Positions 7,182-17,542 of a stretch of 29,814 nucleotides of DNA are shown piece after piece. The stretch is from Caedimonas varicaedens (GTDB lineage Bacteria; Pseudomonadota; Alphaproteobacteria; Caedimonadales; Caedimonadaceae). Both the position numbers and the translations under genes were made by a program. The stretch is from contig BBVC01000067.1 of assembly GCA_001192655.1 (NCBI GenBank), positions 1 to 29,814 on the forward strand. The letters are read 5' to 3'. The notes beneath the pieces are model-generated. The model saw nothing but the letters and a program-made list of their open reading frames with translations. It had not been told where the DNA came from and did not search any database. Position 1 is the stretch's first letter. Each line of letters starts with the position of its first letter.

Positions 7182-7955
7182 CTAAAAATAAACCGTTAAA
7201 CCATCATAAGCTGGCTCGATATGAGACGGCAAAGATTCAAGAGTTTTTTTATAATCAAGCGTTGTATTCATATGAGTCAAAATTGCTTTTTTAGGCTGAA
7301 CTTTTTCAATCCATCCAAGGGCTTCCTGAAGACTCAGATGTGTAGGACGCGGATCAATGCTCAAACAATCGATAATCCATAAGTGAATACCCTGCAAACA
7401 GTGTAGGGCTTGTTCGTCGAGGCTGCTGAAATCCGTGGAATAAGCCATATTCCCTATCCTGAAACCTGTTGATAATCCATCCTTGCCATGTCTTTGCGGA
7501 AAAGAAACAATCTCTGTGTCCCCTATAGTGAATTTTCCTTCTATGATATTTGGTTCAAGAACTGCAGGATAAATCTCAAGAACGCCCTGATGGAAAAGAT
7601 AGGAAAAAGTTCTCTGTAAATCATGAACCGTCTTCTCTGCCCCATAAATAGGGATTTTCTTTTTTCCCTTGTGAAAAAAGAGCGTTCTTAATTCATCAAT
7701 GCCATGAGTATGATCGGCATGAGCGTGCGTATAGAGAACAGCATCTATATCTATAATTTGATTTTTGAGCATTTGAAGCCGCAGGTCAGGCGAGGTATCA
7801 ATCAGAATTTTTGTCCCCCTGATTTCCACATAGGCAGAAGAACGCGTACGAAAATTTCTGGGATCAGAGGGATCACAGGCTCCCCAATAATTATTTGCCG
7901 CAGGAACTCCTGCTGACGCCCCACATCCTAAAATAATCAATTTATTGTCAGGCAT
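7182..7955 (-). CDS. MBL-fold metallo-hydrolase (PhnP-like)
   Basis: Metal-binding motif YTHAHADHTHGIDEL. N-terminus IILGCGASAGVP. It overlaps the tatD stop by 8 nt, and a tatD-MBL pairing is common in Alphaproteobacteria. Confidence 0.8.
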   Translation of the reverse strand: MPDNKLIILGCGASAGVPAANNYWGACDPSDPRNFRTRSSAYVEIRGTKILIDTSPDLRLQMLKNQIIDIDAVLYTHAHADHTHGIDELRTLFFHKGKKKIPIYGAEKTVHDLQRTFSYLFHQGVLEIYPAVLEPNIIEGKFTIGDTEIVSFPQRHGKDGLSTGFRIGNMAYSTDFSSLDEQALHCLQGIHLWIIDCLSIDPRPTHLSLQEALGWIEKVQPKKAILTHMNTTLDYKKTLESLPSHIEPAYDGLTVYF

Positions 7956-13710: not shown

Positions 13711-13880
13711 TTAATACATTGTTAATATAGTATTTTTATAATACACGTGATTATTTTTTAAAATATATTGAAAAAAGATAAAATCTTTACGTCTTTTTAA
13801 GATAATTCTATTTAAATAGAGAGTAGATGTATTGGATCTGGAGATATTTTTATGTCTCTAAATAAAAAGGGAGAAGAATA

Positions 13881-15773
13881 ATGAGGGAGAGTATTCAACA
13901 TAAATTGGACGTTGTGCGTCCTCCACGAGTTCAGATTACTTATGATGTCGAACTTGCTGGTGCAGTTACCAGTCGTGAATTACCTTATGTTTTGGGAGTC
14001 ATGGCTGATTTATCAGGTATGTCAGCAGTCGCCAAAGCGCCTCTTAAAGAGCGCAAGTTTGCTGATATCGCCAGCGATAATTTCAATGATATTATGAAAT
14101 CAGTCAGTCCACGGGTTCAAATTAACGTTACTAATAAAATAAACGGTGGGAAAACGCCTTTAGGCGTAGATCTGACCTTTGTAGCAATGGATGATTTTGA
14201 ACCTCTTAATGTTGTTCAGCAAGCGCCTGCCCTTAAAGCATTGTTTGATTCTCGAACACGCCTCAACGATCTTTTGGGGAAATTGGATGGTAACGAAAAT
14301 CTTAATCGCGTCCTTGACGGGGTGTTGACAAGTGGCGATAAAAAAACCGACGTTGATGCCGTTATTAAAGATGCTAACCTTGTTCGTGATTCTTCACAAA
14401 CAGATAACGCAAAACTGATTGTCACCGAATTTCTTTCCTTATTGGATAAGAATGAGGTGCAGGCAGCTGATTCAATTGCTGTTGTTTCTCAAAAGATTTC
14501 TCAACTAGACCACGTTATTTCGGATCAGTTGAATGAAATTCTACATCATCCAGATTTCCTGCGTCTTGAAGCAACATGGAGAGGATTATGGTTCTTGTTG
14601 ACGAATACAGATCAGGGAGCAGGACTTAAAATTCGTTTGCTCAATATCTCCAAACAGGAATTGCAATATGATTTGGAAAAAGCCATAGAGTTCGATCAAA
14701 GCCAACTTTTCAAGAAAATTTATGAGGAAGAGTACGGTACATTTGGGGGTGCTCCTTATTCAGTTCTGCTGTCAGATTTGGAATTTGGTCGTTCTCCTGA
14801 AGATATCACACTTTTGACAAAGATTTCTCAAGTAGCTGCTGCGGCTCATGCCCCCTTTATTGCGGCATCTCAGCCCAGCTTGTTTGATTTGAACAGCTTT
14901 GCTGAGCTTGGATACCCTCGTGATTTGTCACGTGTTTTCGAAAGCACTGAGCTTGGAAAATGGAATGCGTTCCGTGAATCGGAAGATTCACGCTATGTGG
15001 CTCTTACCTTGCCTCACGTTTTGATGAGGGCGCCTTATGGGGATAATGGCACTGTTGTCTATGGCATGAATTTCCAGGAAGACGTAGATGGCGTCGATAA
15101 TTCGAAATTCTGTTGGGGAAGCGCCGCCTGGTCACTGGCACAGCGGGTATTGAACTCGGCTGGCCTTTATGGTTGGCCTGCTGCCATTCGTGGCGTTGAG
15201 GGCGGTGGTTTGGTTGAAGATCTTCCTTACTATACCTTCAAGACGACAGACGGAGACATTGCATTAAAATGCCCCACGGAAGTATCCATCACAGATCGTC
15301 GAGAAAAAGAACTGAGTGATCTTGGCTTTATTGCACTTTGTCATTGCAAGAATCGTGATTACGCTGCTTTCTTCAGTGCGCAAACAACGCAAAAATCCAA
15401 GCTTTATAACCTGGATCAGGCAAATGCAAATGCTCAGTTATCAAGTCGGCTGACTTACATTCTGGCTGCCTCTCGCTTTGCCCATTATATAAAAGTGATT
15501 ATGCGCGATAAAATTGGCAGCTTTATGTCACGTACAGAGGTTGAAAGTTTTCTTAATAAATGGATTGCCTCTTATGTGTTGCTGACAGATGAAGCAGATC
15601 AAGTTGCAAAGTCACGCTTTCCTTTGCGGGAAGCACGAATTGAAGTGGTAGATGTTCCTGGACAACCTGGAAATTATCGTGCTGTTGTGTTCCTCAGACC
15701 GCATTTCCAGTTGGAAGCACTAACAGCCTCTTTAAGATTGGTTGCAAATCTGCCAAGACCCGCAGCACGTTAA
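13881..15773 (+). CDS. tssBC: Type VI secretion contractile sheath protein encoded as a single TssB(VipA)-TssC(VipB) fusion polypeptide
   Basis: aa 1-150 are TssB-like: PPRVQITYDVE, RELPYVLGVMADLSG, KERKF..I..DNFNDIM, DLTFVAMDDFEPLNVV, ALKALFDSRTRLNDL. aa ~205-630 are TssC-like: QLNEILHHPDFLRLEATWRGLWFLL, LFKKIYEEEYGTFGGAPYS, AAAAHAPFIAA, LPHVLMRAPYG, RFAHYIKVIMRDKIGSF, PGNYRAVVFLRPHFQLE. GGGAGAAG RBS before the ATG. No stop codon and no in-frame ATG lies between the two parts. Confidence 0.85.
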   Translation: MRESIQHKLDVVRPPRVQITYDVELAGAVTSRELPYVLGVMADLSGMSAVAKAPLKERKFADIASDNFNDIMKSVSPRVQINVTNKINGGKTPLGVDLTFVAMDDFEPLNVVQQAPALKALFDSRTRLNDLLGKLDGNENLNRVLDGVLTSGDKKTDVDAVIKDANLVRDSSQTDNAKLIVTEFLSLLDKNEVQAADSIAVVSQKISQLDHVISDQLNEILHHPDFLRLEATWRGLWFLLTNTDQGAGLKIRLLNISKQELQYDLEKAIEFDQSQLFKKIYEEEYGTFGGAPYSVLLSDLEFGRSPEDITLLTKISQVAAAAHAPFIAASQPSLFDLNSFAELGYPRDLSRVFESTELGKWNAFRESEDSRYVALTLPHVLMRAPYGDNGTVVYGMNFQEDVDGVDNSKFCWGSAAWSLAQRVLNSAGLYGWPAAIRGVEGGGLVEDLPYYTFKTTDGDIALKCPTEVSITDRREKELSDLGFIALCHCKNRDYAAFFSAQTTQKSKLYNLDQANANAQLSSRLTYILAASRFAHYIKVIMRDKIGSFMSRTEVESFLNKWIASYVLLTDEADQVAKSRFPLREARIEVVDVPGQPGNYRAVVFLRPHFQLEALTASLRLVANLPRPAAR

Positions 15774-15802: not shown

Positions 15803-16402
15803 ATGCCAACAGATGCAGTAGCCGGAATTAATCCCGAACATTCAAGAGCCCTCGAAAACTTTCGAGGGGTTGAAAGGCCTCTTGACCAACGCGTTCCTTC
15901 ATCAATTTATGTTCAAAGCACCGCAACACCACAATACATGGTGAAAATGGACGATCTTGTAAAGTCCAGTGTTCAAAAATTTGAAGGCGCAATTCAGCTG
16001 TATCACTTTGATTTTGAAGTTTCCCGCTTCACTAATCCCAATACGGCTCATCAACAGTATTCATCAGGTCGTGTGCAATTTGACAATCCATTGCTTATTA
16101 TACCCAATGGTATTCACACGCCTAATATCATGAATCGTCTGATTACCGGTATTTTAGTCAAGGAAATTAAAATTTCTCGCCTTCAGAATATTGATGAAAC
16201 GAACGTTGAAGCAGAAGCGATTACTTTCACGAACTGTTACTATCAAAATGTGACGCCCAAGTACGACTCTCTCATTATTACGTTCAGGTTCGTTGAATAT
16301 ATGCACTTAACGACCTACTATGAACAAGATGGAACCGCTAAAGGTAATAATGTGGTTAGCTATAACATGAGTACTGGCGAGCATAAGGTTCAAGGTGGTT
16401 GA
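15803..16402 (+). CDS. hcp: Divergent Hcp-like (TssD) inner-tube protein candidate with a ~43-aa N-terminal extension
   Basis: Position directly after the sheath gene, with a strong AGGAGG RBS. From aa ~44 the pattern resembles Hcp: YMVKMDD....FEGAIQLYHFDFEVS, SGRVQFDNPLLIIPNGIHTPNIMNRLITG, EAEAITFTNCYYQNV, LIITFRFVEYMHLTTYYEQDGTAKG..VSYNM. Compare Hcp1 STPNLM, ITL..V.V, Y.PQ..DG. The similarity is weak. Confidence 0.55.
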   Translation: MPTDAVAGINPEHSRALENFRGVERPLDQRVPSSIYVQSTATPQYMVKMDDLVKSSVQKFEGAIQLYHFDFEVSRFTNPNTAHQQYSSGRVQFDNPLLIIPNGIHTPNIMNRLITGILVKEIKISRLQNIDETNVEAEAITFTNCYYQNVTPKYDSLIITFRFVEYMHLTTYYEQDGTAKGNNVVSYNMSTGEHKVQGG

Positions 16403-16414
16403 TCTTCCTGACTG

Positions 16415-16912
16415 TTGGATTTAGTAATGAAATATACAAGCCAGTCCTTGTCGAAGAATGTTCAAAAAGGGGTGTATGCGCCCCTTTTTGATTGTCTGTC
16501 CAAAGAAGAGATAGAAATTGTTCTCGATTTGAAGGGATTAAAAGAGTCTATCGCCCGCGAGCTTGAAACAATCTTGAATACAAGACCTGTTGCCAGAGAT
16601 TGGAAACTAGGTGACGCTGTTTATGAAATTGCCCAACATCTTCCTCAATACTTTGGCCTACGGGATTTTACTTTCCAACAAGCCGCCAATGAAGTCGGAA
16701 GACGAGCTATTGTTCAAGAAATCATAAAAGTCATTCAAGCCTATGAACCTCGCCTTAAAAACGTACAGGTCAAGCTGAGTCTTTCTCCCACGCATAGTTT
16801 GTCTGCGACGGTTGAGATTTCAGGAGATGTGAAATTTGGCAATGTCATGGAACGCACTATCTTCCCCGTCCGCGTCAAGAATCTCTTCCATCCTCAATCT
16901 CAATCAGCGTAA
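16415..16912 (+). CDS. tssE: T6SS baseplate protein TssE (gp25-like)
   Basis: SIARELETILNTRPV, QYFGLRDFT, and IIKVIQAYEPRLKNVQVKLS...TVEISGDV fit the TssE/GPW_gp25 pattern. The start is either the TTG at 16415 or the ATG at 16427. Confidence 0.78.
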   Translation: MDLVMKYTSQSLSKNVQKGVYAPLFDCLSKEEIEIVLDLKGLKESIARELETILNTRPVARDWKLGDAVYEIAQHLPQYFGLRDFTFQQAANEVGRRAIVQEIIKVIQAYEPRLKNVQVKLSLSPTHSLSATVEISGDVKFGNVMERTIFPVRVKNLFHPQSQSA

Positions 16913-16917
16913 AAGAC

Positions 16918-17211
16918 TTATGGATGGGGAGTAATTGCAATGATCGTGATTTCTTTTTTCCCCGGACCATAATGCCAGAACACTCTATAAGCTTGAGGTG
17001 TTTTATTCTCGGCATAAGCTTCAAATATTTCTATGCCAAATTCCCGCGTTAAAGATTCATATTTATGAGTATTCAAACTTGGGTGCCTTGGATTTTTTTC
17101 GAGATACCCCAGCGCTTTCCTAACAGCTTTAAGGCGTTTGCAAAAGTTCCTATTTTCCTCTAGTTCCATAAGATTAGAAGAGGCTATATCAGTAAATTTC
17201 AGCTTATACAC
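16918..17211 (-). CDS. RelE/ParE-superfamily type II toxin
   Basis: 97 aa. The C-terminal pattern AYRVFWHYGPGKKEITIIAITPHP is typical of RelE/ParE-like toxins. Located directly downstream of a small AbrB-type antitoxin gene. Confidence 0.6.
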   Translation of the reverse strand: MYKLKFTDIASSNLMELEENRNFCKRLKAVRKALGYLEKNPRHPSLNTHKYESLTREFGIEIFEAYAENKTPQAYRVFWHYGPGKKEITIIAITPHP

Positions 17212-17229: not shown

Positions 17230-17496
17230 TTATTCATCAATATATTTTGAAAAACTTCCAAGATCCTTTATATTTTTCTGAGAAGATTGCATCAAGCCTA
17301 TTTTTACCCTTCTCAAAGCTTCTCTATTCTTAAAAAGCCAATCTTCTTGCAAGGGTATTTCTATATAAGGTTCAAGGATAATTTTATTGCTATTTTTATC
17401 GTATACCATTTTAAATCCACTTATACCTTGAGTTAATTTACCAAGGTTAATTCTGCCTTTTGAATCAGGGCGAAGAACTTTTTCTTGCATGGTCAT
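17230..17496 (-). CDS. AbrB/SpoVT/MazE-fold type II antitoxin
   Basis: The N-terminus VLRPDSKGRINLGKL resembles a swapped-hairpin AbrB motif. I prefer the ATG at 17496 (GAGGAGAG 5 nt upstream) over the ORF-track ATG at 17511. Confidence 0.55.
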   Translation of the reverse strand: MTMQEKVLRPDSKGRINLGKLTQGISGFKMVYDKNSNKIILEPYIEIPLQEDWLFKNREALRRVKIGLMQSSQKNIKDLGSFSKYIDE

Positions 17497-17542
17497 AATT
17501 TCTCTCCTCATATATATATCTTAACATATGTGGGTAATAATC

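What the first reader, a model, noticed from the sequence alone, without database searches (positions are those of the whole stretch)
13881..15773. T6SS sheath encoded as one TssB-TssC fusion polypeptide
A single uninterrupted 630-aa ORF carries a complete TssB/VipA-like N-terminal part (aa ~1-150) and a TssC/VipB-like body, with the WRGL motif at aa 233-236. In the characterised systems I know (V. cholerae VipA/VipB, P. aeruginosa TssB1/TssC1, Francisella IglA/IglB, the Bacteroidota system) the two are separate genes and proteins. I am not aware of a characterised natural fusion. The total is roughly 30-40 aa shorter than a typical TssB plus TssC, and the loss maps to the TssB C-terminus / TssC N-terminus. 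In canonical systems the TssC N-terminal helix is the handle recognised by ClpV after contraction. A fused, shortened junction would therefore suggest altered or ClpV-independent sheath recycling (inference). It also resembles the single-chain sheath proteins of phage tails and eCIS. I checked for an artefact. There is no in-frame ATG between aa 103 and the middle of the TssC part. An A7 run (14340-14346) lies in the linker. Adding one A gives ...DKKNRR-stop but leaves tssC without a plausible start, so a simple homopolymer error does not restore a normal two-gene layout.
Basis: partly seen in the sequence, partly recalled or inferred. Interest (0 to 1): 0.85.

Follow-up and report, generated by a model that had tools for sequence, protein, structure and literature searches.

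The report
Natural one-piece T6SS sheath protein
In the Paramecium endosymbiont Caedimonas varicaedens, the two proteins that normally build the contractile sheath of the type VI secretion "spring" are one conserved 70-kDa polypeptide; such fusions are common in sequence databases, but I found no paper describing them.

Summary
ORF 13881..15773 (630 aa) carries a near-complete TssB profile (aa 6-161) directly followed by a near-complete TssC profile (aa 156-625). An Hcp-like gene and tssE follow it.

It is not an artefact. The same architecture is fixed in a 39-sequence clade (bootstrap 100). dN/dS against an 89%-identical relative is about 0.04, and that relative keeps the frame with an A6 run instead of A7.

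The window is a whole contig of Caedimonas varicaedens (Holosporales). The protein is deposited as a "hypothetical protein".

The fusion is not unique.
- 97 of the 150 nearest 50%-identity cluster representatives carry TssB upstream of TssC.
- Fused forms occur in cultured Marinomonas, Thalassomonas and Planctobacterium, and as P. aeruginosa H3-T6SS alleles.
- Parsimony needs at least 14 fused/split transitions.

About 25-50 residues are missing at the junction. These are the disordered TssB tail and the TssC leader. The ClpV-binding helix of TssC is still present, now internal, behind a roughly 7-residue loop.

A Leu/acid dyad in that helix is 91-96% conserved in split systems. It is eroded in all three old fused clades. 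ClpV-independent recycling is therefore plausible but unproven.

No paper in the searchable library describes a natural fusion. I rate it a new variant of a known kind, of moderate interest.

The parts
13870..13873 (+). Shine-Dalgarno (GGAG) 7 nt upstream of the ATG of the fused gene
   Evidence: Read directly from the sequence. Inferred function.
13881..15773 (+). tssBC: single 630-aa (70.1 kDa) ORF encoding the fused T6SS contractile sheath protomer. Deposited as GAO98558.1, hypothetical protein Cva_01221, Caedimonas varicaedens
13881..14330 (+). TssB/VipA-like part (aa 1-150), ending in predicted helices H116-135 and H139-150
   Evidence: PF05591 aa 10-158 and TIGR03358 aa 6-161. PDB 9n4v_B residues 1-153 align to aa 1-153. 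AF2 secondary structure.
14331..14351 (+). Junction loop, aa 151-157 (TSGDKKT). It contains the A7 run at 14340-14346. It replaces the roughly 25-50 aa of TssB tail, stop codon, spacer and TssC leader seen in split relatives
   Evidence: Alignment of fused and split forms. AF2 model loop 151-157, pLDDT about 68. Relatives keep the frame with an A6 run.
14352..14384 (+). TssC helix alpha-1 equivalent (aa 158-168, DVDAVIKDANL). It is homologous to the ClpV-binding N-terminal helix of split TssC, and is internal here
   Evidence: phmmer alignments to 9n4v_A residue 20 onward and 5urw TssC residue 20 onward. EAEC TssC2 ClpV-binding peptide ATDDCLEEIINNTRA (PMC5048182). Anchored position analysis.
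14346..15755 (+). TssC/VipB-like body (aa 156-625), comprising the VipB domain aa 204-504 and the VipB_2 gp25-like domain aa 513-624
   Evidence: TIGR03355 model positions 3-473 of 473, 644 bits. Pfam. Foldseek top hits are T6SS sheath large subunits 9n4v_A, 5n8n_B, 5urx and 3j9g.
15803..16402 (+). Hcp-like tube protein candidate (199 aa), conserved immediately downstream in relatives
   Evidence: Weak PF05638 match, E 1.8e-5, 25.5 bits against a cut-off of 23.5. No NCBIfam hit. 198-199-aa ORFs sit in the same position in L086 and L087.
16415..16912 (+). tssE (gp25-like baseplate wedge)
   Evidence: PF04965 E 1.6e-13. TIGR03357 TssE equivalog, 75 bits against a cut-off of 53.

Best explanation
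The ORF is the functional sheath gene of the Caedimonas varicaedens type VI secretion system, in a form where TssB and TssC are one polypeptide.

Origin (inferred from comparison). An ancestral adjacent tssB-tssC pair of the P. aeruginosa-H3/Azotobacter type lost the tssB stop codon. The disordered TssB tail and TssC leader were then trimmed. TssB's last helix now joins TssC's first helix through a loop of about 7 residues.

Mechanism (inferred from homology to solved VipA/VipB-type sheaths). The single chain folds like the canonical intertwined heterodimer. TssB's N-terminal strand and TssC's C-terminal strand remain free for the inter-protomer handshake. The protein polymerises on a TssE-containing baseplate around the Hcp-like tube and contracts. 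Covalent linkage guarantees 1:1 stoichiometry and co-folding from one translation event, which suits a reduced endosymbiont genome whose T6SS genes are scattered.

Secondary claim (about 50% confidence). Recycling of the contracted sheath no longer follows the classical route, in which ClpV binds the free TssC N-terminal helix and threads it. The helix is internal, and its most conserved Leu/acid dyad has drifted in this clade. Disassembly would then be ClpV-independent (ClpB as in Francisella, proteolysis or dilution), or would use a modified contact.
For: Shown by tool results:
- Both profiles are complete and abut.
- The locus context is tssBC, hcp-like, tssE. This order is conserved in relatives L086 and L087.
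- It matches the [tssB-tssC-hcp] module reported for Caedimonadaceae (PMC8163844).
- Ranked by TssC alone, the 27 closest clusters (100 to 68% identity) are all fused, at 627-648 aa.
- The window sits in a pure-fused clan of 39 sequences with bootstrap 100.
- dN/dS is 0.038 for the whole gene and about 0.06 across the junction, with synonymous sites near saturation (pS 0.68). Relatives have A6 rather than A7 in the same frame.
- The identical protein was recovered from independent metagenomes, and its 90% cluster has 19 members on contigs up to 61 kb.
- The AF2 model has pTM 0.72. It shows helix 139-150, loop 151-157, helix 158-165.
- Foldseek top hits are T6SS sheath large subunits and, separately, small subunits.

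For the recycling sub-claim:
- The Leu(-7)/acid(-6) dyad of alpha-1 is conserved 91-96% in 110 split TssCs and 13/13 in recent P. aeruginosa fusions.
- In the window's clade, Leu is kept in 1/33 and the acid in 20/33.
- In other fused alphaproteobacterial clades, the acid is kept in 15/73.
- In the gamma/marine fused clade, Leu is kept in 0/11 and the acid in 1/11.
- clpV follows tssG in 29/30 split loci but in 0/8 loci of the gamma/marine fused clade.
- Published T6SS inventories for Holosporales list no TssH/ClpV (PMC8163844).
Against: - No expression or protein data exist for Caedimonas.
- The rest of the genome was not available. A second, canonical tssB/tssC pair or a clpV gene cannot be excluded.
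- The window protein itself keeps a conservative version of the helix dyad (Val-Asp).
- Fused alleles coexist with clpV in P. aeruginosa H3-T6SS and in planctomycete L069. Fusion alone therefore does not demand ClpV loss.
- The clpV/fusion association rests on essentially one clade and is not phylogenetically independent.
- The AF2 monomer is only of moderate confidence (mean pLDDT 72). No multimer was modelled.
- Trees are NJ only.
Confidence: 0.85

Rival explanations
1. Neutral 'Rosetta-stone' fusion. The two obligate partners became one ORF through trivial loss of a stop codon, with no change in mechanism. ClpV, encoded elsewhere in the genome, still recognises the now-internal helix and recycles the sheath.
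For: - Parsimony needs at least 14 fused/split transitions on the tree, so fusions arise easily and repeatedly.
- P. aeruginosa alleles arise by small indels in the GC-rich junction.
- P. aeruginosa and planctomycete fusions sit in clusters that keep clpV.
- The window keeps Val-Asp-x-Val-Ile, a conservative form of the motif.
Against: - In all three old fused clades, the Leu/acid dyad that is more than 90% conserved in split systems has drifted, in a different way in each clade.
- clpV is absent from its canonical slot in the gamma/marine fused clade.
- No TssH is listed for Holosporales.
Confidence: 0.35
2. The fused ORF is a precursor. Internal translation initiation or proteolytic cleavage at the junction yields separate TssB and TssC, as in canonical systems.
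For: In-frame GTG and TTG codons exist at V148 and L149. The junction loop is exposed and of lower confidence in the model.
Against: - There is no conserved Met or start codon, and no properly spaced Shine-Dalgarno sequence, at the junction in the window or in L086 and L087.
- There is no in-frame ATG between aa 103 and about aa 382.
- Linker length has been minimised rather than kept as a processing site.
Confidence: 0.07
3. Decaying or non-functional relic of a T6SS in a reduced endosymbiont genome, kept open by chance.
For: T6SS genes are scattered. The Hcp match is weak. No experimental data exist for any Holosporales T6SS (PMC11909080).
Against: - dN/dS is about 0.04, with saturated synonymous sites.
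- There are over 100 invariant columns across 64 fused homologues.
- The T6SS is conserved in nearly all Holosporales genomes, including the smallest (PMC11909080).
- The T6SS genes of the related endosymbiont Ca. Bodocaedibacter vickermanii, which has a split sheath, are transcribed (PMC8163844).
Confidence: 0.04
4. Sequencing or assembly artefact: a frameshift in the A7 run, or a lost stop codon, in this one assembly.
For: An A7 homopolymer lies exactly in the linker.
Against: - Independent assemblies give the identical 630-aa protein.
- Relatives at 89% and 80% identity have different junction codons (A6) in the same frame.
- 39 clustered sequences share the architecture.
- The +1 frame leaves tssC without a start.
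Confidence: 0.01

Closest known systems
Canonical two-gene T6SS(i) sheath of the P. aeruginosa H3-T6SS / Azotobacter vinelandii type (HsiB3/HsiC3; PDB 9n4v, extended sheath-tube complex, 2025). Subtype i4b from memory.
   Same: This is the best sequence and fold match. TssC part against 9n4v_A: E 1.6e-196, 61% identity. TssB part against 9n4v_B: E 5.9e-43. It is 55% identical to P. aeruginosa HsiB3C3. The gene order sheath-hcp-tssE is the same.
   Different: It is one polypeptide instead of two. About 50 residues of TssB tail and TssC leader are missing. No tssF, tssG or clpV follows in the locus. The Leu of the alpha-1 Leu/acid dyad is replaced by Val.
V. cholerae VipA/VipB and EAEC TssB/TssC, recycled by ClpV via the TssC N-terminal helix (Bonemann 2009; Pietrosiuk 2011; Douzi 2016, PMC5048182)
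   Same: The three-domain sheath fold is homologous. The alpha-1 helix is homologous to the ClpV-binding peptide.
   Different: The helix is not at a free N-terminus. ClpV presence is untested here.
Francisella IglA/IglB sheath (T6SSii), disassembled by ClpB because ClpV is absent (PMC5481754)
   Same: It is a possible functional analogue: an intracellular bacterium whose T6SS has no dedicated ClpV (for the literature).
   Different: IglA and IglB are separate proteins and only distantly related (E 2.5e-70 and 1.8e-8). The ClpB role here is pure inference.
Single-chain sheaths of contractile phage tails, R-pyocins and eCIS (T4 gp18, PA0622, Pvc2/Afp2)
   Same: One polypeptide provides both handshake strands. 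The domain order is collinear.
   Different: Structural similarity is only weak (6j0n_V E 7e-4, TM 0.24-0.35; 3j9q_A E 0.04). There is no phage-sheath Pfam hit. The fusion is derived within T6SS, not ancestral.
Other natural TssB-TssC fusions in public data: P. aeruginosa PA99 H3 allele (683 aa), Marinomonas transparens, Thalassomonas sp. RHCl1, Planctobacterium marinum, Ca. Endobugula sertula, Holosporales and alphaproteobacterial MAGs
   Same: Same domain architecture, PF05591+PF05943+PF18945.
   Different: They have independent origins and longer linkers, from about 15 to over 300 aa. The window's clade has the shortest junction (627-636 aa).

Membership tests
TssB / VipA (T6SS sheath small subunit; TIGR03358, PF05591) | Profile match above the curated cut-off over nearly the full model | tested here: met
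   TIGR03358 gives 160 bits against a cut-off of 97, model positions 1-156 of 160, aa 6-161. PF05591 gives E 1.7e-46.
TssC / VipB (T6SS sheath large subunit; TIGR03355, PF05943+PF18945) | Profile match above the cut-off, with both the VipB and the C-terminal gp25-like domains | tested here: met
   TIGR03355 gives 644 bits against a cut-off of 271, model positions 3-473 of 473. Both Pfam domains are present. Foldseek top hits are TssC chains.
Canonical T6SS sheath (TssB/TssC heterodimer) | Small and large subunits encoded as two separate genes and polypeptides | tested here: not met
   The ORF is single and uninterrupted. There is no internal stop or conserved start. The architecture is conserved in 39 related clusters.
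T6SS locus | Neighbouring core genes (hcp, tssE and others) | tested here: met
   An Hcp-like gene (weak match) and the TssE equivalog lie directly downstream. The other core genes are not in the window. They are reported at other loci in Caedimonadaceae (PMC8163844).
ClpV-recycled sheath | TssC N-terminal helix carrying the conserved hydrophobic/acidic motif (Leu-Asp/Glu-x-h-h) near a free N-terminus | tested here: inconclusive
   The helix is present but internal. The window has Val-Asp-Ala-Val-Ile. In its clade, Leu is kept in 1/33 and the acid in 20/33, against 91-96% in split TssCs.
ClpV-recycled sheath | A cognate clpV/tssH gene in the genome | not testable with these tools
   There is none in the 29.8-kb window. 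Literature inventories list none.
Phage / eCIS single-chain sheath | Sequence or strong fold membership in phage-sheath families | tested here: not met
   There is no phage-sheath Pfam hit. Foldseek gives 6j0n_V at E 7e-4 with TM 0.24/0.35, and 3j9q_A at E 0.04.

The most novel reading that the evidence does not exclude
Covalent TssB-TssC fusion marks T6SS lineages that have abandoned ClpV-mediated recycling. These include the Holosporales endosymbionts and a marine gammaproteobacterial clade. In them the sheath is a single-chain protomer that is either used once or recycled by ClpB. Its former ClpV handle is free to drift, or to accept insertions of up to about 320 aa on the sheath surface. 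Fusion and fission of the sheath genes would then be a recurrent evolutionary switch, with at least 14 transitions, coupled to the recycling mode.
Probability: 0.35. Interest if true: 0.6.

Novelty: new variant of a known kind. Interest (0 to 1): 0.45.

Why it matters
T6SS reviews describe the sheath as a TssB/TssC heterodimer recycled by ClpV through the free TssC N-terminus.

A naturally fused sheath, under strong purifying selection and found in many lineages, shows three things.
- The two-gene layout is not obligatory.
- The TssC N-terminus need not be free.
- Domain 3 of the sheath tolerates both drastic shortening and large insertions.

This offers ready-made single-chain sheaths for structural work and engineering. 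It also offers natural test cases for how, or whether, ClpV handles an internal handle. P. aeruginosa PA99 against PAO1 is one such case, and cultured Marinomonas and Thalassomonas are others.

For Holosporales biology it adds a concrete peculiarity to a T6SS that is conserved in nearly all genomes of the group but has never been studied experimentally.

It is not a new kind of machine. The architecture already sits unremarked in public databases.

Tried and rejected
1. **Same-frame pattern.** In 54 of 57 split loci, tssB and tssC lie in the same frame, and in 47 they are separated by a single stop. This looked like evidence for read-through or a fission relic. I rejected it as a sampling artefact. 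The search for related loci ranks by tblastn HSP, which favours in-frame pairs. Two relatives chosen by TssC similarity alone (L084, L085) have the genes in different frames.
2. **"All top 120 homologues are fused".** This is biased by the full-length query. I repeated the search with TssC only. The 27 closest clusters are still all fused. Split forms dominate below about 70% identity.
3. **Regex scan for the ClpV-helix motif.** It was unreliable: anchors failed, and a false hit fell in the TssB helix VLDGVL. I replaced it with an anchored position-by-position analysis. That analysis weakened my earlier reading that the helix had lost its motif. The window keeps V-D-x-V-I.
4. **Fisher test of fusion against clpV (p = 2e-7).** It is not valid as independent evidence. 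All 8 informative fused loci belong to one clade.
5. **Representative-library count (97/150 fused).** Treat this as an upper bound. Representatives may be the longest cluster members, and gene callers may read through in-frame stops.
6. **Literature.** Ten searches found no paper describing a natural fusion. "TssB fused" hits were sfGFP tags. Castelli 2022 and George 2020, which give Holosporales T6SS inventories, are not held.
7. **P0151 (Ca. Finniella TssC).** It is not on record for context.
8. **Whole-genome ClpV check.** It was not possible.
Full report
**1. What is in the sequence**

The ORF at 13881..15773 (+) is real. It is 630 aa long, starts at an ATG, and has a GGAG Shine-Dalgarno 7 nt upstream.

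Pfam places T6SS_VipA at aa 10-158, VipB at aa 204-504 and VipB_2 at aa 513-624. The NCBIfam equivalog models are more telling. TssB (TIGR03358) covers aa 6-161, model positions 1-156 of 160. TssC (TIGR03355) covers aa 156-625, model positions 3-473 of 473. Both score far above their cut-offs. The two profiles therefore abut, and neither part is truncated in profile terms.

Directly downstream lie a 199-aa protein with a weak Hcp match (15803..16402) and a TssE equivalog (16415..16912). Housekeeping genes flank the module: ccmA/ccmB upstream; a small unannotated gene pair, RNase J, coaX, birA and nuoJ-N downstream.

- the position of WRGL;
- the absence of an in-frame ATG between M103 and about aa 382;
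- the A7 run at 14340-14346;
- the consequence of adding one A.

**2. Where it comes from**

An exact look-up identifies the protein as GAO98558.1, "hypothetical protein Cva_01221" of Caedimonas varicaedens. This is a Holosporales endosymbiont of Paramecium. The longest contig carrying the protein is 29,814 bp, so the window is that whole contig.

The identical protein also occurs on a 13.3-kb JGI metagenome contig seen in two samples. Its 90% cluster has 19 members on contigs up to 61 kb.

**3. It is not an artefact or a relic**

Ranked by the TssC part alone, which does not favour fusions, the 27 closest protein clusters (100 to 68% identity) are all fused, at 627-648 aa.

In a 277-tip NJ tree of the TssC part, the window lies in a pure-fused clan of 39 sequences with bootstrap 100. 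That clan includes MAGs labelled Caedibacter sp., Holosporales and "Puniceispirillum".

Two relatives were fetched at DNA level: L086 (89% amino-acid identity) and L087 (80%). Both keep the same frame through the junction with different codons and an A6 run. For the window against L086, Nei-Gojobori dN/dS is 0.038 for the whole gene and about 0.06 for aa 140-200, with pS = 0.68. Both relatives keep the order tssBC, 198/199-aa Hcp-like gene, tssE.

No start codon or properly spaced ribosome-binding site is conserved at the junction.

**4. Anatomy of the junction**

I aligned fused and split homologues, reading the split ones through their stop codon. Split forms show the following order:
- the end of the TssB core (...LDGN..L...L..V...);
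- a further short segment and an acidic or Ala/Pro-rich tail;
- the stop codon and a short spacer;
- a Met and a low-complexity leader;
- TssC helix alpha-1.

The window goes straight from ...NRVLDGVLTSGDKK to TDVDAVIKDANLVRDSSQ. Relative to the solved Azotobacter vinelandii sheath (9n4v), residues 154-187 of TssB and 1-19 of TssC have no counterpart.

The deficit is 24-50 aa depending on the comparator. It consists mainly of non-conserved, probably disordered sequence.

The AF2 model (64-sequence alignment, pTM 0.72, mean pLDDT 72) predicts helix 139-150, loop 151-157, helix 158-165 and helix 171-189. Foldseek matches T6SS large-subunit chains first (9n4v_A, 5n8n_B, 5urx, 3j9g, 5mxn). Small-subunit chains match separately. 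eCIS and pyocin sheaths match only weakly.

**5. The fusion is common and recurrent**

Among 80 species-level genome loci, 22 encode a single fused ORF. They include:
- cultured Marinomonas transparens, Thalassomonas sp. RHCl1 and Planctobacterium marinum;
- Ca. Endobugula sertula;
- SAR324, Woeseiaceae and a planctomycete.

A 683-aa fused protein is encoded in the H3-T6SS locus of P. aeruginosa PA99 and in at least 24 other contigs. Junction variants among its sibling clusters look like frameshift alleles in a GC-rich spacer.

Of the 150 nearest 50%-identity cluster representatives, 97 have a TssB-like segment upstream of TssC. This is an upper bound. Representatives may be the longest cluster members, and gene callers can read through in-frame stops.

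Fitch parsimony on the NJ tree needs at least 14 fused/split changes, with a split root. Within Holosporales both states exist. Ca. Bodocaedibacter has separate tssB (513 bp) and tssC (1455 bp). Ca. Finniella has a 489-aa TssC.

Linker length ranges from the window clade's near-zero, through roughly 15-100 aa, to insertions of about 320 aa.

**6. Recycling: what can and cannot be said**

It is not deleted. The helix homologous to the ClpV-binding peptide is present at aa 158-168. The EAEC TssC2 peptide is ATDDCLEEIINNTRA; the P. aeruginosa equivalent is SLLDEIIAKGRMA. The helix is now internal, however.

I indexed positions from the conserved G-K/R-L/M-x-R-D segment and tabulated residues.

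| Group | Leu at -7 | Asp/Glu at -6 |
|---|---|---|
| Split TssC with clpV in the locus | 32/35 | 33/35 |
| Split alphaproteobacterial TssC | 68/75 | 72/75 |
| Recent P. aeruginosa fusions | 13/13 | 13/13 |
| Window's minimal-linker clade | 1/33 | 20/33 |
| Other fused alphaproteobacterial clades | 63/73 | 15/73 |
| Gamma/marine fused clade | 0/11 | 1/11 |

The planctomycete fusion, which retains clpV, reads DLLDQVI. Three old fused lineages have thus each lost part of a dyad that is otherwise almost invariant. The window itself reads V-D-A-V-I, a conservative change.

There is separate neighbourhood evidence. clpV follows tssG in 29 of 30 informative split loci, but in 0 of 8 informative fused loci. 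All eight belong to the single gamma/marine clade. Their clusters run sigma-54 activator, tssBC, hcp, tssE, tssF, tssG, an unknown gene, tssK, tssL, tssM, and continue beyond the fetched DNA.

In the alphaproteobacterial fused clades the T6SS genes are scattered, so neighbourhoods say nothing about clpV. Published Holosporales inventories list no TssH (PMC8163844). No paper in the library mentions Holospora* together with TssH, and the only one mentioning it with ClpV is a general review of amoebae. I could not scan the Caedimonas genome.

I therefore put ClpV-independent or altered recycling at roughly even odds. T6SSs without ClpV are known: Francisella uses ClpB, and Campylobacter lacks ClpV.

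**7. Mechanism proposed**

The chain folds as the canonical TssB/TssC protomer. This is inferred from homology to the solved sheaths.
- The N-terminal TssB strand and the C-terminal TssC strand remain free for the inter-protomer handshake.
- TssB's C-terminal helices and TssC's N-terminal helices form the surface helical domain.
- The only new element is the loop that closes that domain.

Fusion gives fixed 1:1 stoichiometry and co-translational assembly of an obligate pair. The likely path runs from split genes, to loss of the stop with a long linker, to trimming. The sister groups of the window's clade are fused forms of 641-648 aa with intermediate linkers.

**8. Comparison with what is known, and novelty**

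This is a member of the T6SS(i) sheath family, closest to the H3-T6SS/Azotobacter type. It fails the "two separate subunits" feature.

None of ten full-text searches found a description of a natural fusion. A 2025 Holosporales review calls the group's T6SS conserved, unstudied and "non-standard" without mentioning the sheath. The Bodo saltans endosymbiont paper writes the module as [tssB-tssC-hcp] for Caedimonadaceae.

The architecture is nevertheless abundant in public databases, where it is annotated simply as the "large subunit". I rate it a new variant of a known kind, of moderate interest.

Noticed in passing
L081 10001-12052 (P. aeruginosa PA99, CP042967.1); P0055-P0067: The H3-T6SS sheath genes hsiB3 and hsiC3 form one 683-aa ORF in PA99 and in at least 24 other contigs, with clpV3 still in the cluster. 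Sibling clusters differ only in a short frame-shifted stretch of the GC-rich junction. This suggests recurrent indel alleles, or sequencing errors, in a model organism.
   Followed up: partly
L006 17738-19261, L049 20457-22028, L008 19568-21109: Deltaproteobacterial and Bacteriovoracaceae MAG T6SS clusters carry a second ORF of about 510-524 aa, some 8-10 kb downstream of tssB/tssC. It has a partial VipA domain plus the VipB N-terminal domain but no VipB_2 C-terminal domain. It looks like a compact fused sheath-like paralogue of unknown role.
   Followed up: partly
P0207, P0212 (901-902 aa); P0216, P0241, P0246 (1106-1644 aa): Some fused sheath ORFs carry an insert of about 320 aa with no Pfam match between the TssB and TssC parts, which is on the sheath surface domain. 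Others have long N-terminal extensions with WD40 propeller, weak TIR or weak VWA matches. These may be real decorations or gene-calling artefacts.
   Followed up: partly
L001-L080: In 54 of 57 split loci returned by the genome scan, tssB and tssC are in the same frame, and in 47 they are separated by one stop codon. This is probably tool ranking bias, since two loci chosen without that bias are out of frame. An unbiased survey would be needed to exclude a real tendency.
   Followed up: yes
window 15803-16402: The gene after tssBC is a 199-aa protein with only a marginal Hcp Pfam match (25.5 bits against a cut-off of 23.5) and no NCBIfam hit. It is conserved in position and length in relatives. 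Reviews say Holosporales T6SSs 'lack' a tube gene, and this divergent Hcp-like protein is the obvious candidate.
   Followed up: partly
window 16918-17211 (-) and 17230-17511 (-): A pair of small ORFs (97 and 93 aa) lies immediately after tssE, with no Pfam or NCBIfam hit. The layout resembles a toxin-antitoxin pair. A YoeB/Phd pair lies upstream, at 5014-5522 of the homologous metagenome contig, which corresponds to about 8.9-9.4 kb in the window.
   Followed up: no
window 7182-7955 (-): A metallo-beta-lactamase-fold protein has precomputed Pfam hits that include Anti-Pycsar_Apyc1 (PF23023). It may simply be a housekeeping MBL hydrolase.
   Followed up: no
L058 8296-19600 (Thalassomonas sp. 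RHCl1): The gamma/marine fused-sheath clusters have the compact order sigma-54 activator, tssBC, hcp, tssE, tssF, tssG, a 183-aa unknown gene, tssK, tssL, tssM. No clpV sits where related split clusters have it. The end of the cluster lies beyond the fetched DNA.
   Followed up: partly
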